DNA of 64,000 bases from Spirochaetales bacterium (GCA_016839055.1 JAEKNX010000002.1:377451-441450); one strand, 5' to 3'; shown: positions 20,276 to 63,494, numbered from the stretch's first letter. Notes: generated by a model not told the origin, from the sequence alone. A program made the numbers and translations.

Positions 20276-21658
20276 TTAGCAGTTTCCGCAGCAGTTTCCA
20301 CAGCCACAGCCTTCTTTGGCTGCAGGCGGGGTAACTATAATCTTATCAAGACCCTTCCATTTCTTAAGATCTTTCGGAAGACCAGCTTCACGTTCCTTGT
20401 TTACATAATCACATGATTCAAAATGATACTCATATTTTGTATGAACATCGTAAGTTCCCTCGAGAAGGGCATAGGTGTCTTCCGTCATTACGAGTTCTTC
20501 GTTTGTCGGGATGACAAAGACCTTGACCGTTGAATCATCAGTACTGATGCAGGTTTCAGCATTACGGGTCATCGACGCTTTATTCTTTTCATCATCAATC
20601 TTTATACCCATGTATTCGAGGCCTTCGAGGGCGAGTTTTCTTGTGATAGGTCCGCGTTCGCCGACTCCTGCTGTGAATACGATGGCATCGGGTCCGCCGA
20701 TGGCGGCCGAATAGGCGCCGATATACTTCTTGATTCGGTAAGATTCGATCATCTGGCAGACGATTGCTCTCTCGTTACCTTCTTCGGCTGCAATCTCGAT
20801 ATCCCTGCGGTCAACCCATTTTTCGGTAATTCCGAGAACACCGCTTTCCTTGTTAAGAGCCGTTTCAACCTCGGCCGCACTCATGCCGGTCTTGTCCATG
20901 ATGAAGAAGGGTATTGCGGGATCAATATCGCCGCTCCTTGTTCCCATTACAAGCCCTTCGAGGGGGGTAAGGCCCATTGATGTGTCGAATGAACAGCCGT
21001 TCTTAACGGCATTGATGCTTGCGCCGTTGCCGATGTGAGCGATAACAAGGTTGGTTTCAAAAGGATCTTTGCCCAGGAGGGCGGCAGCACGCTTGGCTGT
21101 ATACAGAAAAGAAGTGCCGTGGAATCCGTATCTTCTTACGCCGAAATTTTCGTACCATTTATAGGGTAGAGCATAGATGTAGGCCTGTTCGGGCATCGTC
21201 TGGTGCCAGGCCGTGTCCATTATCGCGCAATGCTTTACATCCGGTAGTACTGCCTTCGCGCATTCAATACCAATCAGATTGGCAGGAATGTGGAGTGGCG
21301 CAAGCTGTTCGAGCTCACGAAAAGTCTTCATGGCCTCATCATCGATGATTACCGACTTGGCAAACTTTTCGGCTCCGTGGACAACTCTGTGTCCGACAGC
21401 CTTGATTTCAGTAATGTCTTTAATAGCACCATACTCATCATTCAGGATAGATTCAATGAGAAGATCCATTGCTTCTTTGTGAGTAGGGCATTCTCTTTCA
21501 ATTTTAACTTCGTCGTGGCCACTAGCTTCATGTTTGATAAAGCTTCCGTCAAGGCCTACTCGTTCTACAATACCTGCAGCCAGTGTCTCCATTTTGTCCC
21601 AGTTATAAAGCTGGTATTTAAGTGATGAACTGCCGCAATTAAGGGTTAATATAACCAA
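20276..21658 (-). CDS. ackA: Acetate kinase with a C-terminal Cys-rich extension.
   Basis: LTLNCGSSSLKYQLY N-terminus and acetate/propionate kinase motifs throughout. About 60 extra C-terminal residues end in CGCGNCCGNC. Confidence 0.8.
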   Translation of the reverse strand: MVILTLNCGSSSLKYQLYNWDKMETLAAGIVERVGLDGSFIKHEASGHDEVKIERECPTHKEAMDLLIESILNDEYGAIKDITEIKAVGHRVVHGAEKFAKSVIIDDEAMKTFRELEQLAPLHIPANLIGIECAKAVLPDVKHCAIMDTAWHQTMPEQAYIYALPYKWYENFGVRRYGFHGTSFLYTAKRAAALLGKDPFETNLVIAHIGNGASINAVKNGCSFDTSMGLTPLEGLVMGTRSGDIDPAIPFFIMDKTGMSAAEVETALNKESGVLGITEKWVDRRDIEIAAEEGNERAIVCQMIESYRIKKYIGAYSAAIGGPDAIVFTAGVGERGPITRKLALEGLEYMGIKIDDEKNKASMTRNAETCISTDDSTVKVFVIPTNEELVMTEDTYALLEGTYDVHTKYEYHFESCDYVNKEREAGLPKDLKKWKGLDKIIVTPPAAKEGCGCGNCCGNC

Positions 21659-23279: not shown

Positions 23280-23417
23280 TCCCTGAGGCAGAAATGGACA
23301 ATCTACCAAAAGTCGGAAAAAAGTCAAATTAAAACATTGATAAATACGGAAATTAGGTTTACAATCATCAATAATTTAGAAAAGTATTGTAGAGTTTACG
23401 CAAACAGGAGCGAAGAA

Positions 23418-24656
23418 ATGGAAAAACTGCTGGTAATCAACTGTGGCAGCTCATCGCTTAAATATGAAGTATATGCGATGCCTGAACGAATGAGCCTTGG
23501 TAAAGGACTTGTAGAGAGAATCGGAGCTTCGGTGGGTAATATTACTCAAAAATCAGGAAACGGAGTTTTTGAGACAGAAGAGCCACTGCCGGATCACGAT
23601 GCGGCAATGGCTCTTGTGAAGAGAGCGCTCACCGACGCAGGAAATGGAATATTAAAATCGATTGATGAGATTACGGGAGTAGGACATCGAACCGTGCATG
23701 GCGGTGAAGATTATGCCTCTTCAGTGATAATTGACGACGATGTTATCGATGCGATAATAAGAAACAGTGATCTTGCCCCCCTTCATAATCCCGCGAATCT
23801 GACGGGAATTAAGGCCGCGATTGAAATGCTGCCGGGGGTAACCCAGGTAGCTGTGTTTGACACCGCCTTCCACCAGACCCTGTCTCCGGCATCTTATTTA
23901 TATGGACTTCCTCGGGAACTTTATACAAAGTACAAAATTCGAAGATACGGATTTCACGGAACAAGTCACCGCTATGTATCAAGTGAAGCTGTGAAGCTCA
24001 TGAAAAGATCACCTGAGAATACCAACGTTATCTCCTGCCATCTTGGAAACGGGGCATCTATTACGGCAATTAAACAGGGGAAGTCGGTAGAGACCTCCAT
24101 GGGTTTTACCCCCCTGGAAGGTCTGGTTATGGGAACCCGAAGCGGCGACCTTGATCCGGCAATTATATTATTCCTTCTTGATAAGGGATACAGCAAAGAA
24201 GATATTAATCGGATGATTAACAAAGAAGGCGGACTGCTTGGCCTTTCGGGCATATCCAATGACATGAGGGATATTCATAAGGCTGCAGATCAGGGAAATG
24301 TAGATGCTCAGGAAACCCTGGAAGTCTTCGCCCACAAGATAAGACAGTATATCGGAGCCTATTCGGCAAATATGATCAAGGTTGATGCACTTATATTCAC
24401 CGGCGGAATAGGTGAAAACGATACGAGAATGAGGCAGAGGATTTGCCGCCGACTTCAGAACATCGGAATTGTCATGGATGACGAGAAGAATCAGTCTAAC
24501 GGTTCCAGGCCGGGTATTGTCTCAAGGGATTATTCTCCGGTAACTATAATCGTCATGCCGACAAATGAAGAGCTGCAGATAGCCATAGATACTTATGAGC
24601 TGATATCTCAGGAGCAGCAAGTAAACAAGGGGTTTATGGCAGAAGCCATTTTATGA
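23418..24656 (+). CDS. ackA: Acetate kinase (second paralog).
   Basis: MEKLLVINCGSSSLKYEVY. AGGAG RBS 8 nt upstream of the chosen start at 23418. Confidence 0.8.
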   Translation: MEKLLVINCGSSSLKYEVYAMPERMSLGKGLVERIGASVGNITQKSGNGVFETEEPLPDHDAAMALVKRALTDAGNGILKSIDEITGVGHRTVHGGEDYASSVIIDDDVIDAIIRNSDLAPLHNPANLTGIKAAIEMLPGVTQVAVFDTAFHQTLSPASYLYGLPRELYTKYKIRRYGFHGTSHRYVSSEAVKLMKRSPENTNVISCHLGNGASITAIKQGKSVETSMGFTPLEGLVMGTRSGDLDPAIILFLLDKGYSKEDINRMINKEGGLLGLSGISNDMRDIHKAADQGNVDAQETLEVFAHKIRQYIGAYSANMIKVDALIFTGGIGENDTRMRQRICRRLQNIGIVMDDEKNQSNGSRPGIVSRDYSPVTIIVMPTNEELQIAIDTYELISQEQQVNKGFMAEAIL

Positions 24657-40489: not shown

Positions 40490-41110
40490 TCATGATTGAG
40501 GATCCAACCTGGCTCTGGACAGGATCCCGACGAGGTAACCGCCGAGAAAGGCTGCGTCTTCGGCAGGCAGGAAATTCGTTATATTATCAGAATAAAGAAT
40601 ATTGGCTTCTAAAGGGAACTCGTCATCGGCCTTAAAGATTTGAACAACCATATCAATCTTCGGAAAAACAGGGATAACCACTGAATAGTCTCCGGTGATC
40701 CACTTTTTCCCGCCAAGTGATGCACCAGCCTCGAGCAGCTCTTCGGGTCTTTTTATGAAATTGCTGATAAGTTTATCCAGAGCCCTCTGTTGAAACGACT
40801 TGAAATAAAACATGCCGCCCGGAATTCCTCTGAAACTGATGAATTCTCCCCTCACCGGGTTCTCGTCCATGGAGGTTAGGTAATGCAGAATAAGCACCTG
40901 CACAATGATTGGAACACCCTTGGTGATAAAACGAACTTCGGGCATGCTTATCTCATAAATCCCACTGAGAAAAGCAATTTTATAGGTTCCGTTTTCAAAT
41001 ATTGCTCCGGTTTTCCGGCATATTTCACCCGATTTTGCATTCTCAAGGATACAAGCCGCTTTATCATAGGCAACGAGCAGACTGTTCTCTATCTGCCTTG
41101 TGTTCGACAT
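40490..41110 (-). CDS. DUF3786 domain protein.
   Basis: 206 aa. Shares distributed sequence similarity with the paralog at 56628..57266. This family is recurrently found near corrinoid/acetyl-CoA pathway genes. Confidence 0.5.
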   Translation of the reverse strand: MSNTRQIENSLLVAYDKAACILENAKSGEICRKTGAIFENGTYKIAFLSGIYEISMPEVRFITKGVPIIVQVLILHYLTSMDENPVRGEFISFRGIPGGMFYFKSFQQRALDKLISNFIKRPEELLEAGASLGGKKWITGDYSVVIPVFPKIDMVVQIFKADDEFPLEANILYSDNITNFLPAEDAAFLGGYLVGILSRARLDPQS

Positions 41111-49969: not shown

Positions 49970-50821
49970 TTATCCTGTCTCCTTGCTGGTCAATCGATTA
50001 TAATCGGAAACATCGGACAGCCCCTTTGCTGTCCGATGTAAAACGGTTCTGACTGAATAATTTTTCTTTCTTCTACAGGCCGGACAACAGGAGAGAAGTT
50101 CATCTGTTATAGTAATTTTTTCCTTAAGCTGTTCCATCTGGACGGATGTTCCGACCGGCTGCCCGCAATCGGGGCAAAATATCATCTCCAGGGCAACGCC
50201 CCAGTCTTGCTTCCTGAGTTTTTTATTTTCAATCTTGAAATTTATCACGCCTGTAGGACACACCGCCTCACAGGCCTTGCAGCCTATGCAGAGATCTCCT
50301 GCGATTTTAAAGGGGGAGACCACCTCCTTTTTTATGCCGCGTCCTGAGAACCCTATGGCCTCGGCCTTTATCAGTTCATTGCAGACTCTCATGCATAACC
50401 CGCATAGAATACAGTTCGATTTTCCCTCATCAGCAGCAGTGAAACGGGGCTTGGTTATTCCGTTTTCAAGTGCCAGTTTCATTATCTGCTGAGAATCCGG
50501 AGCCCTGGATAGCAGCAGTTCTATTATCAGTTTTCTCTCTTTGAGAACTCTCGGAGAATGTGTTTTTATATTCAGCCCCTCGGATGCGGGGCAGACACAG
50601 GCCGAATCTATCCAGCTGCGGTCAGGGTTTTGAGAGGGGTTGCTGATTTCCACTATACACAGCCTGCAGGAGCCGCTAGGGCTAAGCTCTTCATGGTGGC
50701 AGAGTGTTGGTATCCTTATCTCCAGCATGGCGGCCGCTTTTAAGATTGTAGTTCCTTGCGGAACACGGATTTTCCTGCCGTCAATTATTATTTCAACCTG
50801 CTTTGTGACCGTCATTTTCAA
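49970..50821 (-). CDS. [2Fe-2S]/[4Fe-4S] electron-transfer protein resembling the N-terminal domain of NuoG/HydA. No catalytic domain.
   Basis: N-terminal plant-type 2Fe-2S (CHHEELSPSGSCRLC). Two CxxCxxCxxxCP ferredoxin motifs. An extra C-terminal CPDC...CCPAC Cys4 motif. Confidence 0.7.
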   Translation of the reverse strand: MKMTVTKQVEIIIDGRKIRVPQGTTILKAAAMLEIRIPTLCHHEELSPSGSCRLCIVEISNPSQNPDRSWIDSACVCPASEGLNIKTHSPRVLKERKLIIELLLSRAPDSQQIMKLALENGITKPRFTAADEGKSNCILCGLCMRVCNELIKAEAIGFSGRGIKKEVVSPFKIAGDLCIGCKACEAVCPTGVINFKIENKKLRKQDWGVALEMIFCPDCGQPVGTSVQMEQLKEKITITDELLSCCPACRRKKNYSVRTVLHRTAKGLSDVSDYNRLTSKETG

Positions 50822-52659
50822 ACCTTCTTCACTGCGTCAAACCTGCAGACTTCAAAACATATGCCGCATTTCACACATTTCGCTGTATCTATGGTGTGAA
50901 CCTCTTTTTTCCGCCCTTCGATGGCTTGATATGGACATTTCACCTGGCAGAGCATGCAGCCGGTACATTTTTCATTGTCAATTTTATATTGAAAAAGGCT
51001 GCGGCAGACACCGGGGCTGCACTTTTTATCGACAATATGCTCCATATACTCATCCTTGAAGTAACGCAGGGTACTTAAGACCGGATTAGGTGCTGTTTTT
51101 CCTAGGGCACAGAGAGAGCTGTCCTTCACCATTTCTCCTATCTCCTCGAGGGCCGCCAAATCTTCTTCTTTTCCTTTGCCCTCAGTTATCCGGGTGAGAA
51201 TGGAAAGAAGCTGCCACAGGCCTTCCCTGCAGGGAGTGCATTTACCGCAGGATTCTTCGACGAGGAAGGACAGATAGAATCTCGCTACTTCCACCATGCA
51301 GGTGTCCTCGTCCATCACGATAAGACCTCCGGATCCCATCATCGAGCCGAGGCTTGTGAGTTCATCGAAATCTACCGACCTGTCAAGATACTGCCCGGGG
51401 ATGCAGCCGCCCGAAGGTCCTCCTGTCTGGATTGCCTTGAACTCCCGGCCGCCTGGAATCCCGCCTCCGATATCGAATACAATCTCACGGAGAGACATTC
51501 CCATCGGAACCTCAATGAGTCCGGTGTTCCTGACTTTGCCGACGAGCGAGAAGATCTTTGTGCCCTTGCTGCCCGGGGTTCCGATCTTATTGAACCAGGC
51601 GGCGCCCCGGTTAATGATGATTGGAATATTAGCCCAGGTTTCGACATTGTTCAGGTTGGTCGGCAGGTTGTAAAGGCCGCTTTCGGTGGTGTGAATGTGC
51701 TTTGTGCGGGGCTCGCCGCTGTAACCCTGCAGAGACTGCATCAGCGCGGTTGACTCACCGCAGACGAAGGCTCCGCCTCCTTTTGTTACTTCAATGTCGA
51801 AGGATAACTCCGATCCGAGAATTTTCTCACCGAGCAGGCCCCATTTTCTGGCATCGGCTATCGCCTTGATAATGTTTTCAACTGCAAGCGGATATTCGGC
51901 ACGGACATAGATTCGGCCTTCCCTGGCGCCGATCGCAAAGGCTCCGATTAGCATTCCTTCAATAACCGAGTGAGGGTTGCCCTCCAGCAGGGATCTATCC
52001 ATATAGGCTCCGGGATCTCCTTCATCCGCGTTGCAGACAACGTATTTCGAGCTGCCTGGGGCAATGCGGCAGGACTTCCATTTCTTGCCTGTCGGGAAAC
52101 CTCCGCCGCCCCGTCCGCGGAGGCCGGATTTTTCCACCTCTCCGATCACTTCTTCCGGGCTCAGATCCGATAGAACCCTTGTCAAAGCGGAATAGCCGCC
52201 CGTGATTATATAATCCTCTATGCTTTTTGGATCGATATGACCGTTCTGGGCGAATACCAGCCTTTGCTGTTTCTCATAAAAAGGAATATCGTTTTCTTTT
52301 ATCAGTTTACGGCCGGTTTCTGGATCTTCATACAGGAGGCGTTCGATCACTTCTCCGTTTTTAAGGGATTTCTCTACTATTTCATCAATATCAGACGGCT
52401 GGATGCGCTGGTAAAAAATATTTTCAGGCCTGATAACCATTAAGGGCCCGTTTTCACACAGGCCGTGGCAGCCGGTTTCCTTGATTGTGATATCGATATT
52501 TTTTTCAGTAACGGTCTTCCGGAGCAGGACCAGCAGTTTTTCCGATTCGCTGGCCCGGCAGCCGGTTCCGCCGCAGAGGGATACTGTCCGGAGAGTAGAT
52601 TTTTTCTCAGTAAGATGAGTCCTTACCGAAACAAGCTGTTCGTTTCCTGTCAGTTTCAT
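50818..52659 (-). CDS. NuoF/HydB-like NAD(P)H-binding FMN flavoprotein subunit with an N-terminal thioredoxin-like [2Fe-2S] domain and C-terminal 2x[4Fe-4S].
   Basis: GGGGFPTGKKW FMN-site motif. 51-kDa-subunit profile. C-terminal CTGCMLCQVKCP and CVKCGICFEVC clusters. ATGA overlaps with both neighbours. Confidence 0.8.
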   Translation of the reverse strand: MKLTGNEQLVSVRTHLTEKKSTLRTVSLCGGTGCRASESEKLLVLLRKTVTEKNIDITIKETGCHGLCENGPLMVIRPENIFYQRIQPSDIDEIVEKSLKNGEVIERLLYEDPETGRKLIKENDIPFYEKQQRLVFAQNGHIDPKSIEDYIITGGYSALTRVLSDLSPEEVIGEVEKSGLRGRGGGGFPTGKKWKSCRIAPGSSKYVVCNADEGDPGAYMDRSLLEGNPHSVIEGMLIGAFAIGAREGRIYVRAEYPLAVENIIKAIADARKWGLLGEKILGSELSFDIEVTKGGGAFVCGESTALMQSLQGYSGEPRTKHIHTTESGLYNLPTNLNNVETWANIPIIINRGAAWFNKIGTPGSKGTKIFSLVGKVRNTGLIEVPMGMSLREIVFDIGGGIPGGREFKAIQTGGPSGGCIPGQYLDRSVDFDELTSLGSMMGSGGLIVMDEDTCMVEVARFYLSFLVEESCGKCTPCREGLWQLLSILTRITEGKGKEEDLAALEEIGEMVKDSSLCALGKTAPNPVLSTLRYFKDEYMEHIVDKKCSPGVCRSLFQYKIDNEKCTGCMLCQVKCPYQAIEGRKKEVHTIDTAKCVKCGICFEVCRFDAVKKV

Positions 52660-53108
52660 TGCGAGGTGAACTCCTGAAAGATTTTCTCTACCTTGGCCGG
52701 GGTTATATGTCCGTTGTATTTTTTATTAATAACCATTATTGGACCCAGGGCGCAGGCTCCCAGACAATTAACTGTCTCGAGGGAAAAACTGCCGTCTGCG
52801 CTGGTTTCTCCATTTTTAATACCCAGGCTGCGTTCAATTTCCTCCAGTATCCGCCCTGCACCGCGGACGTGACAGGCAGAACCCATGCAGACTTTGACGA
52901 TATTGCGTCCCTTGGGTTTGAGTGAGAAAACATTATAGAAGGTGGCCACCGAATAGACATGATGAAGGGGCAGACTTAAGCCTGCTGCTACTTTTTTGAT
53001 ACTGTCTTCGGAAAGAAAATTGAACTCTTCCTGTATTTCCTGTAGAATCGGAATCAATGATTCCGGCGTCAGGGGGAAATCAGCTATAATCTTTCCTACT
53101 TTTTTCAC
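52656..53108 (-). CDS. NuoE/HydC-like thioredoxin-fold [2Fe-2S] subunit.
   Basis: 150 aa. CMGSACHVRG ... CLGACALGP cysteine pattern of the 24-kDa subunit family. Confidence 0.75.
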   Translation of the reverse strand: MKKVGKIIADFPLTPESLIPILQEIQEEFNFLSEDSIKKVAAGLSLPLHHVYSVATFYNVFSLKPKGRNIVKVCMGSACHVRGAGRILEEIERSLGIKNGETSADGSFSLETVNCLGACALGPIMVINKKYNGHITPAKVEKIFQEFTSQ

Positions 53109-53111
53109 TCT

Positions 53112-53642
53112 TTATTTCTCCAATGCCTCGCTCTGCACCATGGATACTCTGAATTTGCTTATAACTTCCTTTCTTCTGTCCGCCGTGATATCTTCAACAC
53201 TGGTGAAGCGGATGGCTTTAGTGGGGCAGGCGGCGGCACAGGCGGGTATTTTCCCTTCTTCCAGTCTGTCTATACATAGATCACATTTTGATAATGATAT
53301 TGCCTGCGGAACTGCCTTTATTATTCCGAAGGGACAGACCATCACGCAGGCATTGCATCCGATGCATTTATCCATGTTTAATACAACCGGTTCGTCCGGC
53401 CCGCTTCTATCCATGGCAGCTGTTGGACAGACTGTAATGCAGGGGGCGTCGGTGCAGTGACGGCAGTGCATCGGGATAACATCATCGCCGTCTGTTTCGA
53501 GAATAATCCTGGGGTAGAGACGTTCGCTGCTGTAGAGCGCTTCTACAAGAGTATTGCTTTTTGAGTGAGCCAGGGCGCATTCGAGTTCACATGTGTGACA
53601 ACCCTGACATCTGCTGATAACTACCTCAATTATACTGTTCAT
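53112..53642 (-). CDS. cooF: CooF-type iron-sulfur electron-transfer protein (4x[4Fe-4S]).
   Basis: 176 aa with four CxxCxxCxxxCP-type motifs. Lies immediately downstream of cooS. Confidence 0.75.
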   Translation of the reverse strand: MNSIIEVVISRCQGCHTCELECALAHSKSNTLVEALYSSERLYPRIILETDGDDVIPMHCRHCTDAPCITVCPTAAMDRSGPDEPVVLNMDKCIGCNACVMVCPFGIIKAVPQAISLSKCDLCIDRLEEGKIPACAAACPTKAIRFTSVEDITADRRKEVISKFRVSMVQSEALEK

Positions 53643-53646
53643 ACTA

Positions 53647-55572
53647 TCACTCCTGGTCCAGCACCTTTAGTGCCTGCTCATAGACCATGGGTTTGAGCTT
53701 AAGGAGTTTTCTTTTTTTATCGATGTGTCTGATCATTTTATGAGCGGCTTTGACGGGATCCTCTTCAAAGGCCCATTTGCCGCCGACTTCTGCTTCGATT
53801 TCATCGGTAAGGTAATTAAACATTTTTTTGCTGCCCATCATCGGAAGAGGCTTGCCTATCATGGTATATACACCCGAGGCTACAAAATAGAAACCGATTG
53901 AAACGGCTTTTTCACTCATCCATTCCGGCGCGGCGCCGGCCGCCGGCAGATCGGAGATGTCATTTCCAAGACCGCCTTCGGCTACGATATTGGACAGAAC
54001 CCGCAGGATGCGGCTGTTATCCACACATGAACCCATGTGCAGCACCGGAGGAATGCCAACTGTACGGCAGATTTCCTGCAGACCCTTTCCCGCGTATTTA
54101 AAAGCTGATTCTGGCTGCAGCAGTCCGTGCTTCGCACAGGATATGGCATTGCAGCCGGTGACAACCACCAGTACATCGTTTTTAATCAGTTCCTTGACCA
54201 TCTGGATATGGCCGCTTTCGTAAGGCACATTCGGATTTGAGCAGCCGATAACGCCCGCGGCTCCCCTCAGGCGGCCTTCTTTGATAGCGTTGTTCAGCGG
54301 CCGGTAGGTGGCCCTGTATTTTCCGCCGAGAAAATCAAATACCGATTCGGCGGTAAAACCCGCTACCATCGGCTCTTTCTCCGACGGCAGATAGACAGAT
54401 TCTTTATTTCGTCTGGAATAATTGTCTATAGCAATCTCTATTATCTCTTTGGAGGTCTTAATCGCGTCTGTCTCATGGAATTCTATATGCTTCACTCCGG
54501 GAATCTTTGCCTTATCCGAAGTTGTCACGAGTTCGGTATGAAAACAATCCGCTACTGCCTTAAGGCCGGGCATTATACACTGCACATCGACAATCATCAT
54601 GTCGACGACTCCTGTCATGATCGCGAGTTCCTGCTGCAGAAAACTACCGGCAACCGGAATTCCTCGTCTCATCAGAATTTCATTGGCTGTACAGCATATT
54701 CCAGCTATGTTTATCCCTGTAGCTCCTGCATCCTTTGCCTTTTTATCCATCTCATCAGAGGTGGCTATCTCGGCTATGATGTCGGAGAGGGCAGGTTCAT
54801 GACCGTGTACAATAACGTTTATTTTAGCTTCATCCATAACACCGAGGTTGGCGCTTGATTTCAGGGGGTTAGGTGTACCGTACAGAATGTCTTGAAGTTC
54901 AGTGGCCACCATTGACCCGCCCCAGCCGTCGGCGAGGGACGTCCTCATTCCATGATTTATCAGATGACGGTATTCGGCATCCACTCCCATATGGGTACGG
55001 TGCATGGTTTCGACAACTTCTCTGTCGATGCTGCGGGGCATAATGTTTAGTTCTTTCCATAGTTTTATTCTGGTTTCCGGAGCGGTTCCTGCTGTCTTTA
55101 GAAATCCATCCTGCCGGCCGAATTCATTTTTTGCTTCGCTTACCAGGTCGAGTGCTATCTCTTTTGCGCTTCGATCTTTTGTTTTTAAGCCGTAGATCTC
55201 GGCGACTGCCCTTAGTTTTGCTTCATCTTTGATTTTGTATGCTGAATCTCCTTCGGCTGCCATCTGAAGAGTATGAACAACGGTTCGGCCGTGATCCGAG
55301 TGGGCGGCAGCACCGGCGGCGATCATACGGCAGAGATGCCGGGCCGCAATGGTATCTGCGTCGGCTCCGCAAACTCCCACCTGGGGCCCATCCCCGAATG
55401 GATCAATTCGGCAGGGCCCCATGGAGCAGTGCCGGCAGCATAAACCAAGCTGCCCGAACCCGCACTGGGGCTGCATGGCCTCGAACCTGTCCCAGACTGT
55501 CTGCATATTCTCTTTTGCGGCAAATTTAATCATTTTTTGAGTGGCTTCATCGGAAAACGAATGGTCCATCAT
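53647..55572 (-). CDS. cooS: Ni,Fe carbon monoxide dehydrogenase catalytic subunit.
   Basis: 641 aa. N-terminal CGFGQLGLCCRHCSMGPCRI D/B-cluster motif. CODH/prismane-fold profile. Confidence 0.9.
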   Translation of the reverse strand: MMDHSFSDEATQKMIKFAAKENMQTVWDRFEAMQPQCGFGQLGLCCRHCSMGPCRIDPFGDGPQVGVCGADADTIAARHLCRMIAAGAAAHSDHGRTVVHTLQMAAEGDSAYKIKDEAKLRAVAEIYGLKTKDRSAKEIALDLVSEAKNEFGRQDGFLKTAGTAPETRIKLWKELNIMPRSIDREVVETMHRTHMGVDAEYRHLINHGMRTSLADGWGGSMVATELQDILYGTPNPLKSSANLGVMDEAKINVIVHGHEPALSDIIAEIATSDEMDKKAKDAGATGINIAGICCTANEILMRRGIPVAGSFLQQELAIMTGVVDMMIVDVQCIMPGLKAVADCFHTELVTTSDKAKIPGVKHIEFHETDAIKTSKEIIEIAIDNYSRRNKESVYLPSEKEPMVAGFTAESVFDFLGGKYRATYRPLNNAIKEGRLRGAAGVIGCSNPNVPYESGHIQMVKELIKNDVLVVVTGCNAISCAKHGLLQPESAFKYAGKGLQEICRTVGIPPVLHMGSCVDNSRILRVLSNIVAEGGLGNDISDLPAAGAAPEWMSEKAVSIGFYFVASGVYTMIGKPLPMMGSKKMFNYLTDEIEAEVGGKWAFEEDPVKAAHKMIRHIDKKRKLLKLKPMVYEQALKVLDQE

Positions 55573-56627: not shown

Positions 56628-57266
56628 ATGACAATTCAATTTCTCTCTTATACAATTACAGGTATGGAAGAGCAAAAAAAAGCATATTGGGAACCTAAGC
56701 TGTGGGAAGAATTAAGGTCACAGGATCCGGCGAGGATCTGTGAGCGATCCGGGGCTGATTATGATCCCGGCGGATTCTATGAGATCAGCTCTCTGGACAG
56801 AAGGGTAAGGATCTATCCAGAGGAAGAACGGCTGGAGTCCGACGATTTGGAACTTGCTTCCAGCATGGAATATCAGCTGCTCTTGGTTTCTTATCTCCTC
56901 TATGCCCAGAATATTGATCCGACAGGGGAATGGGTGTCGGAAAAGGATCTAAAGGGCGGCAGTCTCTTCTTTCGCGGTCCCCACGCGGTTCCCTCTGCTC
57001 CTCTGGAAAGACAGTTCGGTAGTGATGCCAAGGGATTCCGGGAGAAAGCACTCACCCTCGGCGGCCGCCCCGCAGAATTCGGGGACCTGTCGATGGTTTT
57101 TCAAATCCTGCCCCGTATTTCATTTGCCGTTGTTCTGTGGGTTAAAGATGAGGAATTTCCGGCCCGCGTCACATTCATGTTCGATTCATCGATTGATGCC
57201 CATCTGCCCCTGGATGTGATATTTGCCATGACGCAGGCGGCTGCTCAAAAACTGCTGGGCGAATAG
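56628..57266 (+). CDS. DUF3786 domain protein (second paralog).
   Basis: 212 aa. The only plus-strand gene inside the cluster. An alternative start is possible at 56664 (MEEQKK). Confidence 0.5.
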   Translation: MTIQFLSYTITGMEEQKKAYWEPKLWEELRSQDPARICERSGADYDPGGFYEISSLDRRVRIYPEEERLESDDLELASSMEYQLLLVSYLLYAQNIDPTGEWVSEKDLKGGSLFFRGPHAVPSAPLERQFGSDAKGFREKALTLGGRPAEFGDLSMVFQILPRISFAVVLWVKDEEFPARVTFMFDSSIDAHLPLDVIFAMTQAAAQKLLGE

Positions 57267-57672: not shown

Positions 57673-58248
57673 TTAATAAATTGTATTAATAATGCGCTGA
57701 AAATCCTTTTGAGAGTTAATATTGACAAATGAGCTGTAATCAGGGTCCAGGCTGCGGATAATATCATCTTCAGCGTACTTTACCCGGACATACTCATAGA
57801 ATGAAATTATCCGCCGTTTCGGAAGAGTTTTTTCGATGAAAGGAATACAGCTTTTACGGTAGGCCGCGAACAGGGGTTCGGTATAGCCTCCGTGGTGAGG
57901 AACGTGCGCATCGTAATCTCCGATTTTCTTCACAAGCCAGGCCACGAGGGCGGGACTCATGAAAGGCGAATCTACAGTCGTTACAAAATTTATATTCGAA
58001 CTGCTTTCCCTCAGCCCGCTGTAGAGACCCATGAGCGGACCCTGTCCCGGTTTTTCATCGGTGATGATGCGGGCGGGGATGTTTCGGTAGGCTTCGGTTT
58101 TATTTACTACTACTATTATCTCTTTGAACATTGGGGATAGCTGTCTAATTTTGCGCTCAATAAAGGGTTCGCCTTCAATTGTCAAAAAGGCTTTATCAAG
58201 GCCGCCTATTCTCTCTCCATTGCCGCCTGACAGGATGATACAGGTCAT
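57673..58248 (-). CDS. mobA: Molybdenum cofactor guanylyltransferase.
   Basis: N-terminal ILSGGNGERIGGLDKAF nucleotide-binding motif. 191 aa. Start/stop junction with fdhA. Confidence 0.7.
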   Translation of the reverse strand: MTCIILSGGNGERIGGLDKAFLTIEGEPFIERKIRQLSPMFKEIIVVVNKTEAYRNIPARIITDEKPGQGPLMGLYSGLRESSSNINFVTTVDSPFMSPALVAWLVKKIGDYDAHVPHHGGYTEPLFAAYRKSCIPFIEKTLPKRRIISFYEYVRVKYAEDDIIRSLDPDYSSFVNINSQKDFQRIINTIY

Positions 58249-60965
58249 TACCGGCCTGATTTCTCCACTTTAACGGCACAGACCTTGAGCTCGGGGATCT
58301 TCGCAATTGGATCGAGGGCGGCGATGGTCAGGGCGTTAGCCGGGTGTTCATGAAAATGAAAAGCCATGAATACTGTACCTTCTGGTACCCTATTTGTGAT
58401 GTTGGCCTTCACTTCAATTTTACCCCGGCGTGATGATACGATGAGCAAATCTCCGCTTTTAACACCGAGGCGGCCTGCGTCGGACTCGCTGATTTCCAGT
58501 GCCCCCTGAGGAACGAGATCGTCGAGTACTCTGCATTTTCGGGTCATTGTGCCGGTATGCCAATGCTCGAGCATTCTGCCGGTAGTGAGGATAATGGGAT
58601 ACTCGCTGTCGGGCATCTCCCGGGGCGGAAGAAACTCAACCAGATGGAATTTACCAAGGCCCCTGGCAAAGCTGTCTTTATGCAGGTATTGGGTTCCCCC
58701 GTGGCTAACATCCGGACAGGGCCACTGCAGTCCTGTCTTCTCGAGGCGCGGATAGGTAATTCCGGCATAGCTCGGTGTGAGCCGGCATATTTCCTCCTGA
58801 ATCTCCTCTGCACTTCGGTAATTCATTGAATAACCCATTTTTTCAGCAAGATTACCTATGATTCTCCAGTCTTCCAGGGCCTCACCCGGAGGCTCTACGG
58901 CCTTGCGTACACGCTGAACCCGCCGCTCGGTATTTGTAAAGGTTCCGTTCTTCTCGGCAAAGCAGCAGGCGGGCAGGACTATATCGGCCAGACGGGCTGT
59001 CTCTGAGAGAAAGATATCCTGCACAAGGAGGAAATCGAGGTTTTCAAGTCCCTTTTGTACATGGTTAATATCGGGATCGCTTAGCATCGGGTTCTCGCCC
59101 ATGATGTAGAGTCCCCGAATTTCCCCAACGGCCGCGGCGTTCATTATTTCGACTACAGTCAGTCCGGGAACCGCTGGGAGCGCACAACCCCAGGCCGCCT
59201 CAAACTTGCCTCTTGCCGCCGGATCATCCACCTTCTGGTAGCCTGAATAAACATTCGGCAGCGCCCCGAGGTCACAGGCACCCTGAACGTTGTTCTGCCC
59301 GCGCAGGGGATTCACTCCGGAGGCTTCTTTACCTACATTGCCGCTCATCATGGCAAGGTTGGCAAGGGCCATAACATTGTCGGTTCCACTTGTGTGCTGG
59401 GTTATTCCCATAGAGTAGATGATTGAAGCCGATTCAGCCCCGGCATAAACTCTGGCTGCCCGGCGTATAGCCTCAGCGGGAACACCGGTGATTTTCTCAG
59501 CAAACTCGGGGGTGTTTTTCATTATCGAGTCATGGATTTCCTCGAATCCTTCAGTGCGTTCGGCTATGAAGCGGCTGTCTTCAAGCCCCTCACTAAGGAT
59601 GACGTTCATAAGGGCATTGATCAGCGCTACATCGGTTCCCGGTCTCTGGCGCAGATGGATATCGGCAATTCCTGCCAGAGAGATTCGGCGGGGATCGGCT
59701 ACTATAAGCTTTGTTTTGTCCCCGGCGACAGCCTTTCGGATATTTATGCCGATTATTGGATGACATTCGGTTGTGTTGGAACCGATGACGAAGATGACCG
59801 GAGCCCTTCCAATTTCAGCTATGCTGTTTGTCATGGCGCCGCTGCCGAAGGCCCGCGCCAGCCCCGCAACTGTGGAGGCATGACACAGCCGGGCGCAGTG
59901 GTCGACATTATTAGTGCCAAGCACCGCTCGGACGAATTTCTGCATTACGAAATTTTCTTCGTTCGTGGTCCGGGCAGATGAGAGTCCGGCTAGGGCCTGC
60001 GGCCCGTATTTATCTTTGAGCCCGGTAAGCCGCCTGGCTGCCAGGGAAAGGGCTTCGTCCCAGGAGGCTTCCCGGAAAATGCCCTCTTCCTTGATGAGGG
60101 GAACCCGGAGGCGTTCTTCGCTGCTAATGAAATCGAAACCGAATCGTCCCTTGACGCAGGTGTTGCCGTCGTTCGGAATGACCCCTGTTTCACTCGTTAC
60201 CCTGACGATTTTGCCCGTCCTGCGGTGGACGTTCAAATCGAGCTGACAGCCGACTCCGCAGTAGTTACAGGTGGTACGGACTTTCCGGAGGTCTTTGGCC
60301 CGTGCCAGCCTGCGGGCGGGATATTCATACAGGGCTCCGGTTGGACAGGTGCTGACGCACTGGCCGCAGGTTTCGCATGGAGATTCCTTAAGCGGTAAAT
60401 CCAGGCCTGTGCTGATTATCACATCCGCTGTGCGGCCCCTGATAGTGAGGGCTTCGGCTCCCTGTACTTCGCGGCAGATTTTAACACAACGCTGGCAGCT
60501 GATGCATTTTGACGGATCGTATTTAATCGCGAGATTATAGCTGGTATAGTTAAAATCCCTGATCTTTCGATGCAGGAAGGGGTAGCGGTTTTCATTTACC
60601 TGGTACTGGTAGGCGTAATCCTGTAGCAGGCAGTCTCCATCACTGTCACAGGTTGTGCAGGAAAGGCGGTGTTCGCTGATCAGCAGTTCCAGGGTCGCTC
60701 TGCGCATGGACATAATTTCCTTTGTCGCTGTACGGATAACCATCCCGTCTTCGGCTTCCCTTGTGCAGGCTGTCTGAAGGCCCCTCTGGCCTTCAATTTC
60801 CACGAGACAGAGGCGGCAGGCGCCTGTTGGGGTGAGCCTGTCATCATGGCAGAGGTGAGGGATGTCTACACCATTCTCCCCGGCTATTTCCAGAATGGTT
60901 CGGCCGGACCGGCAATTAACCTTTCGTCCGTCCAATGTAATTTTAACTTCTGCCATAAGCGACAT
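58248..60965 (-). CDS. fdhA: Formate dehydrogenase catalytic subunit, Mo/W-bisPGD, with an N-terminal NuoG-like [2Fe-2S] and [4Fe-4S] domain. Cysteine-type.
   Basis: 905 aa. N-terminal CxxC...C ferredoxin motifs, then a molybdopterin oxidoreductase body. Active-site region CARLCHASTVAGL, with Cys where FdhF has Sec. Confidence 0.85.
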   Translation of the reverse strand: MSLMAEVKITLDGRKVNCRSGRTILEIAGENGVDIPHLCHDDRLTPTGACRLCLVEIEGQRGLQTACTREAEDGMVIRTATKEIMSMRRATLELLISEHRLSCTTCDSDGDCLLQDYAYQYQVNENRYPFLHRKIRDFNYTSYNLAIKYDPSKCISCQRCVKICREVQGAEALTIRGRTADVIISTGLDLPLKESPCETCGQCVSTCPTGALYEYPARRLARAKDLRKVRTTCNYCGVGCQLDLNVHRRTGKIVRVTSETGVIPNDGNTCVKGRFGFDFISSEERLRVPLIKEEGIFREASWDEALSLAARRLTGLKDKYGPQALAGLSSARTTNEENFVMQKFVRAVLGTNNVDHCARLCHASTVAGLARAFGSGAMTNSIAEIGRAPVIFVIGSNTTECHPIIGINIRKAVAGDKTKLIVADPRRISLAGIADIHLRQRPGTDVALINALMNVILSEGLEDSRFIAERTEGFEEIHDSIMKNTPEFAEKITGVPAEAIRRAARVYAGAESASIIYSMGITQHTSGTDNVMALANLAMMSGNVGKEASGVNPLRGQNNVQGACDLGALPNVYSGYQKVDDPAARGKFEAAWGCALPAVPGLTVVEIMNAAAVGEIRGLYIMGENPMLSDPDINHVQKGLENLDFLLVQDIFLSETARLADIVLPACCFAEKNGTFTNTERRVQRVRKAVEPPGEALEDWRIIGNLAEKMGYSMNYRSAEEIQEEICRLTPSYAGITYPRLEKTGLQWPCPDVSHGGTQYLHKDSFARGLGKFHLVEFLPPREMPDSEYPIILTTGRMLEHWHTGTMTRKCRVLDDLVPQGALEISESDAGRLGVKSGDLLIVSSRRGKIEVKANITNRVPEGTVFMAFHFHEHPANALTIAALDPIAKIPELKVCAVKVEKSGR

Positions 60966-60979
60966 CCTTAAACAAAAAT

Positions 60980-62845
60980 CTATTTGACGGCCACTGCGTC
61001 AAAGGGGCAGACATCCATGCATTCGCCGCAGCGGATGCAAAGGGCCGGATTGATAATATGAGGTGTTTTTTTCTCCCCCCTGATTGCGTCAACGCTACAG
61101 ACCTTGATGCATTTCCCACAGGCCCGGCAGGCCTCGGCGATAATGGAATACTCGATCAGATTTTTGCAGACACCGGCGGGGCATCGGCCGTCGTTGATAT
61201 GGGCTTCATACTCTTTTCTAAAATATCTGATTGTAGTAAGAACCGGGTTGGGGGCGGTTTGACCGAGTCCGCAGAGCGATCCTTTTTTTACTACCCCGGA
61301 TAGATCCTCAAGCTTTTTAATATCTCCCGGCCGGCCCCGGCCGCTGCAGATATCCGTCAAGAGGTTTACCATATGTTGAGTGCCAACCCTGCAGGGAACA
61401 CATTTGCCGCAGGACTCCTTCTGCACGAAATCGAGGAAAAACCGCGCCATATCGACCATGCAGGTGCGATCATCCATGACTATCAGTCCTCCGGAGCCTA
61501 TGATAGCTCCGAGTTCCTTCACAGACTCGTAGTCGAGAGGCAGATCGAGAAATTCATCAGGAATACAGCCTCCTGAGGGGCCGCCTATTTGGGCTGCCTT
61601 GAACGTCCTTCCGCCTGGAATACCGCCGCCGATGTCAAAGACTATTCGGCGCAGCGTAGCTCCAAGCGGAACTTCCACCAGTCCGGTATTGATAACCTTT
61701 CCGGCCAGTGCGAAGATCTTGGTTCCTCTGCCGTCCGGGGTTCCTATGGCGGAAAACCAGGTCTTTCCCTTTTCGATTATGAGGGGCACGTTAGCAAGGG
61801 TTTCCACATTGTTGATATTGGTGGGCATTCCCTTGAATCCCTTTACTGCTGGAAACGGGGGCCGGGGACTGGGCATTCCCCGTTCACCCTCGAGGGAAGC
61901 TATCAGCGCTGTCTCTTCCCCGCAGACAAAGGCGCCGGCTCCCATGCGGATCTCAATGTCGAAACTGAAACCGGAACCGAAAATATTTTTCCCAAGAAGG
62001 CCGCAGGCGCGGGCCTGCTCGGATGCAATTGTTATATGTTCTACGGCGATAGGGTATTCCGCTCTGACATAGATGAAGCCCCGGGAAGCACCAATGGCAA
62101 ATGCCGCGATGATCATGCCTTCGATAATTTGATGAGGGTTTCCCTCAAGCAGGGCCCTGTCCATAAAAGCACCCGGGTCGCCTTCATCAGCGTTACAGAT
62201 TAAATATTTCTGCTCACCTTCTGCCCGGCGGCAGAATCGCCATTTCTGCCCTGTCAGAAATCCGGCTCCGCCCCGGCCCCTGAGTCCGGAATTTAAGACC
62301 TCATCAATTATTTCCTCCGGGGACATCTTCGTCAGTGCCCGGGCCGCGGCCTGATAAGCACCGGCAGCCACTGCCGATTCCAGCTTCCTGGGATCAACCC
62401 TTCCGCAGTTTTTGAGAACTTCTTTGCTCTGATGCTGGAAAAAAGGAAGCTCATCCGGATCGGCTGTGGTATTTCCATCCGCGTCGGCGCAGAGTCTTGC
62501 CACCGGGAGGCCCCCTTTGAGGGTTTTCTCGATGATTTCATCCACGTCATCGGGGCTGACGCCACCATAGAGAAAATGTTCCGGCTCGATAAGAAGGACA
62601 GGGGCACGGGAACATTGGCCGTGACAGCCTGTTTCGATGATCTCAAATTCCTCTTCGAGCCCGGCCATGCGGAGTTTTTCATGAAATGCCTTTCCTACTT
62701 CTTCTGCTCCGAGGGCCCGGCATCCTGTCATGCAGAGCAGAATCTGCTTCCGGGAAACTTTTTCTGCCGTAATTCGTTTTCTGAAAATCTCCAGATCATC
62801 AGGATAGGCAATAACAGGATAGGTCATCGTTTCTTCCTTATTCAT
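60980..62845 (-). CDS. NuoF/HydB-like NAD(P)H-binding FMN flavoprotein subunit (second paralog).
   Basis: 621 aa. Domain order matches 50818..52659. GAGFLTGQKW FMN motif. C-terminal CRACGKCIKVC and CIRCGECMDVC clusters. Confidence 0.8.
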   Translation of the reverse strand: MNKEETMTYPVIAYPDDLEIFRKRITAEKVSRKQILLCMTGCRALGAEEVGKAFHEKLRMAGLEEEFEIIETGCHGQCSRAPVLLIEPEHFLYGGVSPDDVDEIIEKTLKGGLPVARLCADADGNTTADPDELPFFQHQSKEVLKNCGRVDPRKLESAVAAGAYQAAARALTKMSPEEIIDEVLNSGLRGRGGAGFLTGQKWRFCRRAEGEQKYLICNADEGDPGAFMDRALLEGNPHQIIEGMIIAAFAIGASRGFIYVRAEYPIAVEHITIASEQARACGLLGKNIFGSGFSFDIEIRMGAGAFVCGEETALIASLEGERGMPSPRPPFPAVKGFKGMPTNINNVETLANVPLIIEKGKTWFSAIGTPDGRGTKIFALAGKVINTGLVEVPLGATLRRIVFDIGGGIPGGRTFKAAQIGGPSGGCIPDEFLDLPLDYESVKELGAIIGSGGLIVMDDRTCMVDMARFFLDFVQKESCGKCVPCRVGTQHMVNLLTDICSGRGRPGDIKKLEDLSGVVKKGSLCGLGQTAPNPVLTTIRYFRKEYEAHINDGRCPAGVCKNLIEYSIIAEACRACGKCIKVCSVDAIRGEKKTPHIINPALCIRCGECMDVCPFDAVAVK

Positions 62846-63317
62846 ATTTTTCCAGAATAGATTTGATTTTGTCCGGCTTAAGCTGTCCGTAATAGTCCTC
62901 GTCCACCATCATGACAGGGGCAAGAAAACAAGTACCCATGCAGGCGACAATTTCGAAGGTAAAGCGCATATCCTTCGTCGTCGCCCCCGGTTCTATCTCC
63001 AGTTCTTTGCTTATACGTTCGCTGATGCGTGGACTTCCTTTGACATGGCAGGCCGTTCCTTCGCAGATGCGGACAGTATGCCGGCCATGGGGTTTTGTGT
63101 GAAATTGGGTATAGAAGGTAATAACACCATGCATGCGGCTTGTGGGAATTCCTGTTTGCCCGCTGACCCATTTCAGGACGGGAACTGGAAGGTAGCCGTA
63201 AGCTTCCTGGAGTTTTTGCAGAATAGGGATCAGGCTGTCAGGTTCTGTGTTTTTCATTTCGGATAAGATTTTTTCAGCTGGCCCGAGATCAATCGCGGGC
63301 GATTGGGTTTTCGGCAT
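62838..63317 (-). CDS. NuoE/HydC-like [2Fe-2S] subunit (second paralog).
   Basis: 159 aa. CEGTACHVKG ... CMGTCFLAP cysteine pattern. Overlaps the downstream flavoprotein gene. Confidence 0.75.
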   Translation of the reverse strand: MPKTQSPAIDLGPAEKILSEMKNTEPDSLIPILQKLQEAYGYLPVPVLKWVSGQTGIPTSRMHGVITFYTQFHTKPHGRHTVRICEGTACHVKGSPRISERISKELEIEPGATTKDMRFTFEIVACMGTCFLAPVMMVDEDYYGQLKPDKIKSILEKYE

Positions 63318-63416
63318 AAGAGTAATTACTCCTTATCGATAATAATAATCGAAGTTGGCCGGGAAGTGTTGGAAAAAAAATAGAAAATTGAGAAAATTTG
63401 AAATAGAAGTAAGTTA

Positions 63417-63460
63417 TAGCTGTTTCACTTGTTTGCAGTGAGAAACAAGTGAAACAGCTA
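63417..63460. terminator. Perfect 18-bp-stem hairpin, likely the intrinsic terminator of the MCP gene.
   Basis: TAGCTGTTTCACTTGTTT-GCAGTGAG-AAACAAGTGAAACAGCTA. T-rich tract on the minus strand after the stem. Confidence 0.6.
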
Positions 63461-63494
63461 TGATTTTTATCGATCCTTCAGGTGCAGAATGTTA

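What the first reader, a model, noticed from the sequence alone, without database searches (positions are those of the whole stretch)
57673..63317. A paralogous NuoE/NuoF module on a cysteine-type Mo/W formate dehydrogenase with mobA
A second NuoE-like (159 aa) and NuoF-like (621 aa) pair has the same domain order as the CODH-associated pair. It precedes a 905-aa FdhA that carries its own NuoG-like N-terminal FeS domain. The order 24-kDa, 51-kDa, catalytic subunit, then mobA mirrors NAD-dependent or bifurcating formate dehydrogenases.

The active-site position aligns as CARLCH with no in-frame TGA, so this is a Cys-enzyme, not a selenoprotein.

Both CO2 reductases of the pathway therefore appear to use duplicated copies of one flavoprotein module. 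That looks like evolutionary re-use of a single redox plug on two different catalytic heads.
Basis: partly seen in the sequence, partly recalled or inferred. Interest (0 to 1): 0.6.

Follow-up and report, generated by a model that had tools for sequence, protein, structure and literature searches.

The report
Bifurcating-type formate dehydrogenase operon, Cys form
A four-gene operon in an uncultured spirochete encodes a cysteine-type formate dehydrogenase wired to a HydBC/Bfu-type flavoprotein module, and although it is a well-formed example it belongs to an enzyme family already described, and it is not a recent copy of the similar module on the neighbouring CO dehydrogenase.

Summary
Four co-directional minus-strand genes encode NuoE-like (159 aa), NuoF-like (621 aa), FdhA (905 aa) and MobA-like (191 aa) proteins.

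- **Cys enzyme:** FdhA has Cys361-His362 and Arg555 at the positions of the R. capsulatus FdsA active site. There is no in-frame stop. Nine of 16 related FDH loci carry TGA at that codon.
- **Flavoprotein type:** the NuoF-like subunit is HydB/BfuB-type. It has an N-terminal [2Fe-2S] domain, a C-terminal 2x[4Fe-4S] domain and the Cys/His signature site. The operon therefore fits the predicted "Type 1 Fdh-Bfu", coupling formate/CO2 to NAD(H) and ferredoxin.
- **Second module:** a second BfuCBA set really does sit inside the CODH/ACS operon.

The evolutionary reading is only partly right. The two NuoF copies are 52% identical and the NuoE copies 40%. Each has at least 120 foreign relatives at 60-85% identity. 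Those whose gene neighbourhood I checked keep the same catalytic partner. NuoF2 is closer to the BfuB subunit of the bifurcating NiFe hydrogenase of Acetomicrobium mobile. NuoF1 is closer to WorB of that organism's tungsten aldehyde oxidoreductase. A sister relationship had 0/50 bootstrap support.

The idea of one redox plug on many heads is published (Schut 2022; Feng 2025). This is a new member of a known kind.

The parts
62838..63317 (-). bfuC/nuoE-like gene (NuoE2, 159 aa): [2Fe-2S] subunit of the FDH flavoprotein module
   Evidence: PF01257 at 1e-50 over the full length. The Cys85-x4-Cys90-x35-Cys126-x3-Cys130 motif is present. An AGGAG ribosome-binding site lies 11 nt (10 intervening bases) before the ATG. 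It is 40% identical to NuoE1, against 76/66/55/52% to the NuoE of FDH-linked loci L001, L006, L007 and L086.
60980..62845 (-). bfuB/nuoF-like gene (NuoF2, 621 aa; NCBI start at Met7 gives 615 aa): FMN/NAD(H) subunit of HydB type
   Evidence: Pfam domain order is 2Fe-2S_thioredx, Complex1_51K, NADH_4Fe-4S, then 2xFer4. The best solved relatives are B subunits of bifurcating enzymes (7t2r_B 1e-236, 7q4v_B, 9n5u_B, 8a6t_B), against 1e-108 to 1e-118 for FdsB. Cys462, Cys500, His549, Cys555 and Cys560 align to A. mobile BfuB Cys438, Cys476, His525, Cys531 and Cys536. It overlaps nuoE2 by 8 nt. It scores below the NuoF equivalog cut-offs.
58248..60965 (-). fdhA/bfuA gene (905 aa): NuoG-like FeS N-terminus fused to a Cys-type Mo/W-bis-MGD formate dehydrogenase
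   Evidence: TIGR01591 scores 875 bits against a cut-off of 666. 6tg9_A (R. capsulatus FdsA) matches at 3e-233 over residues 5-903. Cys361, His362 and Arg555 sit at the FdsA Cys386, His387 and Arg587 positions. Cluster motifs: Cys39/50/53/67; His99-Cys103/106/112; Cys154/157/160/164; Cys197/200/203/207; Cys233/236/240/270.
57673..58248 (-). mobA-like gene (191 aa): probable molybdopterin guanylyltransferase making the MGD cofactor
   Evidence: PF12804 at 4e-33. NCBIfam MobA models match but all fall below their cut-offs. Its start overlaps the fdhA stop by 1 nt. A MobA-like gene follows fdhA in L001 and lies near it in L007, L029, L032, L055 and L063.
63415..63462 (.). 20-bp perfect inverted repeat with an 8-nt loop, just after the upstream MCP-like ORF and followed by T-rich DNA; probable terminator that marks the 5' limit of the FDH operon
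49970..53642 (-). Comparison set, not part of the FDH operon: CooF-like (53112-53642), NuoE1 (52656-53108), NuoF1 (50818-52659) and short BfuA (49970-50821, 283 aa) between cooS and acsB
   Evidence: The short BfuA's best solved match is WorA 9mqx_A at 5e-47. It lacks the His-ligated cluster region and has a C-terminal four-Cys motif, Cys216/219/245(246)/249. NuoF1's best solved match is WorB 9mqx_B at 1e-230.

Best explanation
The operon nuoE2-nuoF2-fdhA-mobA encodes a cytoplasmic three-subunit formate dehydrogenase/CO2 reductase of the HydABC/Bfu family. It matches the "Type 1 Fdh-Bfu" of Schut et al. 2022, in which the pterin active site is part of BfuA.

**Proposed mechanism.** Formate is oxidised, or CO2 reduced, at a Cys361-ligated Mo- or W-bis-MGD centre in FdhA. 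Electrons pass through the proximal [4Fe-4S] cluster and the NuoG-like FeS chain of the FdhA N-terminus to the FMN of the NuoF-like subunit. That subunit, together with the NuoE-like [2Fe-2S] subunit, couples the reaction to both NAD(P)(H) and ferredoxin:

2 formate + NAD+ + 2 Fd(ox) <-> 2 CO2 + NADH + 2 Fd(red) + H+

Next to a complete CODH/ACS cluster, the likely physiological direction is confurcation. Reduced ferredoxin would pull NADH electrons onto CO2 to supply formate to the methyl branch of the Wood-Ljungdahl pathway. The MobA-like protein would supply the guanine dinucleotide form of the cofactor.

**Shown here:** gene order and coupling, domain and cluster content, active-site residues, and family placement.

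**Inferred:** ferredoxin dependence, the direction of the reaction, the nucleotide (NAD or NADP) and the metal (Mo or W).

**Evolution.** The module is an old, FDH-specific lineage of the BfuBC core. It is not a copy of the CODH-linked module in the same locus.
For: - **Operon:** four overlapping or closely spaced co-directional genes, a ribosome-binding site before nuoE2, and a hairpin upstream.
- **FdhA:** passes the TIGR01591 equivalog cut-off and aligns end to end with FdsA of R. capsulatus, with Cys, His and Arg conserved. Homologues carry TGA at the Cys361 codon.
- **NuoF2:** has every feature that PMC9304861 lists for bifurcating BfuB and reports as lacking in non-bifurcating homologues. 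These are the N-terminal [2Fe-2S] Cys38/42/74/78, the C-terminal Cys573/576/579/583 and Cys603/606/609/613, and the Cys/His site with His549.
- **Solved relatives:** its closest solved relatives are B subunits of experimentally bifurcating enzymes.
- **Conservation:** the NuoE-NuoF-FdhA arrangement is kept in relatives at 81, 71 and 68% identity. The FDH-linked clade has 50/50 bootstrap support.
- **Context:** the operon lies next to a full CODH/ACS cluster, and two acetate kinase genes are in the window.
Against: - Per PMC9304861, no Type 1 Fdh-Bfu had been characterised as of 2022, so bifurcation is a family-level prediction.
- The signature site is read as a [2Fe-2S] cluster by one group. 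From my own knowledge, not checked here, others read it as a Zn site, and its role is unsettled.
- Nucleotide specificity and metal cannot be read from the sequence.
- The tree is neighbour-joining with few characterised references.
- The direction of the reaction in vivo is unknown. The organism is a MAG and could use the pathway oxidatively.
Confidence: 0.7

Rival explanations
1. It is a simple, non-bifurcating NAD(P)+-dependent formate dehydrogenase of the FdsGBA type (R. capsulatus, C. necator). In this reading the extra FeS domains of the NuoF-like subunit play no coupling role.
For: The gene order (gamma-like, beta-like, alpha) is the same, and the best solved match of FdhA is FdsA (9wxb_B, 6tg9_A). 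No Type 1 Fdh-Bfu had been assayed as of 2022.
Against: FdsB matches NuoF2 far less well than bifurcating B subunits do (1e-108 to 1e-118 against 1e-236), and only over residues 38-548, without the C-terminal ferredoxin domain. The FdsG model NF004638 scores 125 bits against a cut-off of 198. His549 and the flanking Cys residues of the bifurcation signature are present. PMC7311640 reports that the number of FeS centres separates the two groups.
Confidence: 0.2
2. One reading: the FDH-linked and CODH-linked NuoE/NuoF pairs arose by duplication of one module within this lineage and were then attached to two heads.
For: The domain order is the same, both lie within 13 kb on the same strand, and identity is 52% and 40%.
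Against: At least 120 foreign proteins are closer to each copy than the copies are to each other. Partner-specific synteny holds at 64-81% identity in other lineages, including a Victivallales MAG. The split NuoF2+NiFe-BfuB versus NuoF1+WorB has 100/100 support, and a sister grouping has 0/50. The third subunits differ in architecture: a long BfuA with the His-ligated cluster against a short WorA-like BfuA with a four-Cys C-terminus.
Confidence: 0.03
3. The 905-aa protein is a molybdopterin oxidoreductase for another substrate (for example nitrate, or an unknown one) rather than formate.
For: Weaker matches to NasC and NapA models exist. Some neighbouring clades pair BfuB with molybdopterin proteins only 26-34% identical to FdhA.
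Against: Only TIGR01591 passes its cut-off; NasC scores 542 bits against 1100. The FDH-specific Cys/Sec-His pair and the Arg are conserved, and homologues carry Sec at that site. The locus is a Wood-Ljungdahl context.
Confidence: 0.03

Closest known systems
Type 1 Fdh-Bfu of the BfuABC (HydABC) family, exemplified by the predicted Carboxydothermus hydrogenoformans enzyme (Schut et al. 2022, PMC9304861)
   Same: It has three subunits: a BfuC (NuoE-like), a BfuB with N-terminal [2Fe-2S], FMN and [4Fe-4S], the Cys/His site and C-terminal 2x[4Fe-4S], and a BfuA whose C-terminal half is the pterin formate dehydrogenase.
   Different: The host is a Spirochaetales MAG. A MobA-like gene is in the operon, and the operon abuts a CODH/ACS cluster.
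NAD+-dependent FdsGBA formate dehydrogenase of Rhodobacter capsulatus (6tg9) and Cupriavidus necator (6vw7)
   Same: It is the best solved match for the catalytic subunit. It shares the gamma-beta-alpha gene order, the Cys-His active site and the NuoG-like N-terminus.
   Different: FdsB lacks the C-terminal ferredoxin domain and, according to PMC9304861, the additional clusters. The FdsG model is below its cut-off. FdsGBA does not use ferredoxin.
Characterised bifurcating FDHs: Gottschalkia acidurici HylCBA-FdhF2 and the Clostridium autoethanogenum FdhA-HytA-E complex
   Same: They catalyse the same proposed overall reaction with the same BfuBC-type core.
   Different: In those enzymes the pterin sits on a separate FdhF-type subunit (Types 2 and 3). 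G. acidurici's is a W/Se enzyme. Here it is fused to BfuA and has Cys.
A. mobile NiFe-HydABCSL (7t2r) and WorABCSL (9mqx), the structurally solved Bfu "plugs"
   Same: NuoF2 is 57.8% identical to the NiFe-Bfu B subunit with all five signature ligands. NuoF1 and the short BfuA match WorB and WorA best.
   Different: The catalytic heads differ: hydrogenase and aldehyde oxidoreductase, against FDH and CODH.

Membership tests
Bfu (HydABC-type bifurcating) family | BfuB has an FMN/NAD(H) domain plus the NuoF-type [4Fe-4S] cluster | tested here: met
   PF01512 at 7e-45 and PF10589 at 1e-33. Cys479/482/485/525 are invariant in alignment A1.
Bfu (HydABC-type bifurcating) family | BfuB has an N-terminal thioredoxin-like [2Fe-2S] domain and a C-terminal 2x[4Fe-4S] ferredoxin domain, which PMC9304861 reports as lacking in non-bifurcating homologues | tested here: met
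   PF01257 covers residues 24-107 and Fer4 domains cover 568-618. Cys38/42/74/78, Cys573/576/579/583 and Cys603/606/609/613 are present.
Bfu (HydABC-type bifurcating) family | The conserved His plus Cys ligands of the B2 site (A. mobile Cys438, Cys/Thr476, His525, Cys531, Cys536) | tested here: met
   NuoF2 has Cys462, Cys500, His549, Cys555 and Cys560 in an ungapped alignment to 7t2r_B. NuoF1 has Cys454, Thr492, His541, Cys547 and Cys552.
Bfu (HydABC-type bifurcating) family | BfuC with a [2Fe-2S] cluster, encoded next to BfuB | tested here: met
   PF01257 at 1e-50 and the four-Cys motif. The gene overlaps nuoF2.
Bfu (HydABC-type bifurcating) family | Simultaneous, coupled reduction of NAD(P)+ and ferredoxin by the third substrate | not testable with these tools
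   This needs a purified enzyme. PMC9304861 states that among Type 1 enzymes only Nfn-Bfu had been characterised.
Metal-dependent formate dehydrogenase alpha subunit (TIGR01591) | Score above the curated equivalog cut-off | tested here: met
   875.1 bits against a cut-off of 666.25.
Metal-dependent formate dehydrogenase alpha subunit (TIGR01591) | A Sec/Cys metal ligand followed by His, and the conserved active-site Arg | tested here: met
   Cys361, His362 and Arg555 align to FdsA Cys386, His387 and Arg587. The same column is TGA in 9 of 16 homologous loci.
Selenocysteine-containing FDH | An in-frame TGA at the active-site codon | tested here: not met
   The ORF is uninterrupted over 905 codons and the codon encodes Cys.
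FdsGBA-type NAD+-dependent FDH | A gamma subunit of FdsG type and a beta subunit without a ferredoxin domain | tested here: not met
   NF004638 scores 125 bits against a cut-off of 198. FdsB aligns only to residues 38-548 of NuoF2.
Respiratory complex I NuoF | Score above the NuoF equivalog cut-offs | tested here: not met
   TIGR01959 scores 485.8 against 558.65, NF010120 386.3 against 389, and NF008436 394.8 against 749.
MobA molybdenum cofactor guanylyltransferase | Score above the MobA equivalog cut-offs | tested here: inconclusive
   PF12804 passes at 115 bits against 27. All NCBIfam MobA models fall below their cut-offs; the best is 123.3 bits against 164. The position after fdhA supports the role.

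The most novel reading that the evidence does not exclude
In this spirochete lineage and its relatives, both CO2-reducing steps of the Wood-Ljungdahl pathway may run on NADH plus ferredoxin through two different Bfu modules.

The less expected one is the CooS-CooF-BfuC-BfuB-short BfuA set encoded inside the acs operon, directly before acsB. It is conserved in three other loci (L001, L003, L004) and a Victivallales MAG (L005).

If CODH/ACS is physically wired to a confurcating module, part of the reducing power for the carbonyl branch would come from NADH rather than ferredoxin alone. That would change the energy budget assumed for such acetogens.

The evidence shows conserved synteny and the right architecture. 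The literature has only a bioinformatic prediction of a free-standing CodhABCSF, reported in Firmicutes, and a COG-level note that NuoEFG-like genes co-occur with Wood-Ljungdahl CODHs.
Probability: 0.3. Interest if true: 0.6.

Novelty: new member of a known kind. Interest (0 to 1): 0.3.

Why it matters
It gives a clean Cys-type example of the fused "Type 1" FDH-Bfu architecture. According to PMC9304861, no enzyme of that architecture had been assayed as of 2022. A Cys enzyme is easier to express heterologously than the Sec forms found in many relatives.

It also shows, within one locus, that the FDH and CODH partners use different and anciently separated lineages of the BfuBC core. This corrects the idea of a local duplication.

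For understanding uncultured spirochete acetogens, it suggests that CO2 reduction to formate is driven by NADH plus ferredoxin rather than by H2 directly. None of this changes current concepts; it fills in a predicted case.

Tried and rejected
- **Genome-contig scan with a NuoF2 alignment.** The source genome and close species were not recovered. I reused the 80 loci as a broad HydB/BfuB reference set with partner annotation.
- **Literature searches for a described CODH/ACS operon with embedded NuoEF genes.** They gave nothing specific. Only the COG-level note in PMC6344411 and the CodhABCSF prediction turned up.
- **The M. thermoacetica NADP-FDH as a close analogue.** Rejected: its beta subunit is SfrB-type, not NuoF-type.
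- **Recent duplication, complex I NuoF identity, FdsGBA membership and a misread Sec codon.** All rejected on the tests listed in the membership table.
- **Promoter scan.** It gave no more hits than shuffled sequence, so no promoter is claimed.
- **Not attempted.** Metal (Mo or W) and NAD versus NADP specificity cannot be read from the sequence. No tungstate or molybdate transporter was seen among the window ORFs I annotated.


Full report
**What is there**

The minus strand of 57673-63317 carries four tightly packed ORFs.
- nuoE2: 62838-63317, 159 aa.
- nuoF2: 60980-62845, 621 aa, overlapping nuoE2 by 8 nt.
- fdhA: 58248-60965, 905 aa, starting 14 nt after nuoF2.
- A mobA-like gene: 57673-58248, 191 aa, overlapping the fdhA stop by 1 nt.

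An AGGAG ribosome-binding site lies 11 nt (10 intervening bases) before the nuoE2 ATG. A perfect 20-bp hairpin at 63415-63462, followed by T-rich DNA, separates the operon from an upstream MCP-like ORF. Pfam assignments are unambiguous. Exact protein matches place the window on a 509-kb contig of a "Spirochaetales bacterium" MAG, with NCBI proteins MBI9105995 to MBI9106003.

**The wider locus**

Downstream on the same strand lie cooC, cooS, a cooF-like gene, nuoE1, nuoF1, a 283-aa NuoG-N-terminal-like gene, acsB, acsC, a RACo gene, acsF/cooC, acsD and acsE. A DUF3786 gene on the + strand sits between this set and the FDH operon. It is in fact a triple, because it has its own short BfuA-like third subunit.

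**The catalytic subunit**

FdhA passes the curated formate dehydrogenase alpha equivalog TIGR01591, at 875 bits against a cut-off of 666. It aligns over residues 5-903 with FdsA of R. capsulatus at 3e-233.

In ungapped blocks of that alignment, Cys361-His362 correspond to FdsA Cys386-His387, and Arg555 corresponds to Arg587.

I also examined the same column in 16 FDH-linked loci from other genomes.
- Nine have an in-frame TGA (CARL*H).
- Five have Cys.
- In two the motif was not found.

The window's closest relatives, L001 and L006, have Cys. The Cys call is therefore secure, and the column is a true Sec/Cys site.

The N-terminal 225 residues hold one [2Fe-2S] motif, a His-ligated [4Fe-4S] motif (His99, Cys103, Cys106, Cys112) and two ferredoxin-type motifs. 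The pterin-proximal [4Fe-4S] motif (Cys233/236/240/270) follows just beyond them.

**The flavoprotein**

NuoF2 is not a complex I NuoF, since it falls below all NuoF equivalog cut-offs. It is also not an FdsB. The FdsB structures match at 1e-108 to 1e-118 and only over residues 38-548. B subunits of experimentally bifurcating enzymes match at 1e-196 to 1e-236 over the full length.

NuoF2 has the N-terminal [2Fe-2S] domain and the C-terminal 2x[4Fe-4S] domain. It also has the five ligands of the site that Schut et al. describe as the hallmark of bifurcating BfuB: Cys462, Cys500, His549, Cys555 and Cys560. These equal A. mobile Cys438, Cys476, His525, Cys531 and Cys536. According to that paper, non-bifurcating homologues such as R. 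capsulatus FDH lack these extra clusters. PMC7311640 makes the same distinction.

The operon thus fits the predicted Type 1 Fdh-Bfu. The paper states that this type had not been characterised biochemically.

**Are the two modules duplicates?**

They are homologous but distant.
- NuoF2 and NuoF1 share 52% identity.
- NuoE2 and NuoE1 share 40%.
- The FdhA N-terminus and the 283-aa protein share 29%, and the latter has a deletion of the His-cluster region.

Each NuoF has at least 120 non-self relatives at 60-85% identity. In a joint alignment, all 120 hits of one search are closer to their own query than to the other copy.

Genomic context follows the same split.
- NuoF2 relatives at 81, 71 and 68% identity (L001, L006, L007) lie in NuoE-NuoF-FdhA operons.
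- NuoF1 relatives at 79, 67 and 64% identity (L003, L004 and L005, the last carried by a Victivallales MAG) lie in CooC-CooS-CooF-NuoE-NuoF-short BfuA-AcsB-AcsC-RACo clusters.

The NuoE subunits and the third subunits co-vary in the same way.

NuoF2 is more similar to the B subunit of the A. mobile NiFe-Bfu (57.8%) than to NuoF1 (51.4%). NuoF1 is more similar to A. mobile WorB (57.2%).

Neighbour-joining bootstraps give the following support.
- The split (NuoF2 clade + NiFe-BfuB) versus (NuoF1 clade + WorB): 100/100.
- The FDH-linked clade: 50/50.
- The CODH/ACS-linked clade: 41/50.
- The two clades as sisters: 0/50.

The two sets are ancient paralogues, each inherited together with its catalytic head.

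**Comparison with the literature**

The idea that one BfuBC core is re-used on many catalytic heads, including Fdh and Codh, is the central thesis of Schut et al. 2022 (PMC9304861). Feng et al. 2025 (PMC12318220) even use the word "plug". They also predict a CodhABCSF complex in which CooF plays the role of WorS.

The 283-aa protein here matches WorA best (5e-47). It has the C-terminal four-Cys motif described for WorA and for the hypothetical Codh enzyme.

Inoue et al. 2019 already noted that NuoEFG-like COGs co-occur with Wood-Ljungdahl CODHs.

**Verdict**

The functional reading (a Cys-type, NAD-linked or bifurcating FDH) is supported and sharpened to a Type 1 Fdh-Bfu. The duplication story is not supported. 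The general concept is already known.

What remains mildly new:
- the host, a Spirochaetales MAG;
- the side-by-side occurrence of two different Bfu lineages on the two CO2 reductases;
- the embedding of a Bfu module inside the acs operon across several lineages.

These observations are worth a note but do not amount to a new kind of system.

Noticed in passing
window 49970-55572 (-); also L001, L003, L004, L005: A complete Bfu set (NuoE1, NuoF1 and a short WorA-like BfuA with a C-terminal four-Cys motif) sits between cooS-cooF and acsB inside the CODH/ACS operon. The arrangement is conserved in relatives down to 64% NuoF identity, including a Victivallales MAG. Published Codh-Bfu predictions are free-standing and reported only from Firmicutes.
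   Followed up: partly
L014, L029, L037, L039, L058, L063, L072, L073 and others (fdhA homologues next to BfuB): Nine of 16 FDH-linked Bfu loci have an in-frame TGA at the codon matching Cys361 (CARL*H). Sec and Cys forms of this fused FDH are therefore interleaved across genomes.
   Followed up: partly
window 20276-21658 (-), 21771-23279 (+), 23337-24656 (+): Two full-length acetate kinase paralogues (PF00871, about 1e-146 each) flank a 502-aa ORF that has no Pfam match.
   Followed up: no
window 56628-57266 (+) and 40490-41110 (-): Two DUF3786 genes bracket the CODH/ACS cluster. A DUF3786 gene also sits next to cooC in L001 and L003, and near it in L004. Its role in the pathway is unknown.
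   Followed up: no
L058 (Chloroflexi bacterium RBG_16_60_22, MGNX01000051.1): A 22-kb stretch carries cooS, acsB, a Sec-type FDH-Bfu operon and a second NuoF1-like BfuB with a short BfuA. A similar double-Bfu Wood-Ljungdahl locus therefore exists in another phylum.
   Followed up: partly
P0076, P0077 (1032 aa); L044, L051, L053 (about 1040 aa): These are BfuB proteins fused at the C-terminus to a GltD/Pyr_redox_2-like domain. P0076 and P0077 are 70% identical to NuoF2 over 92% of its length. In L044 and L053 the fusion lies next to a molybdopterin protein only about 34% identical to FdhA.
   Followed up: no
window 63415-63462: A perfect 20-bp inverted repeat with an 8-nt loop lies between the MCP-like ORF and nuoE2. 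It is probably the terminator of the upstream gene, but an operator role was not excluded.
   Followed up: partly
L003 1-5252 and L001 1-3848: In relatives, an HdrA-like/MvhD(FlpD)/DUF5981/MTHFR gene set lies beside the cluster: next to the CODH/ACS cluster in L003, and upstream of the FDH operon in L001. In L003 it takes the place that the FDH operon occupies in the window, so the FDH operon is a movable neighbour of the acs cluster.
   Followed up: no
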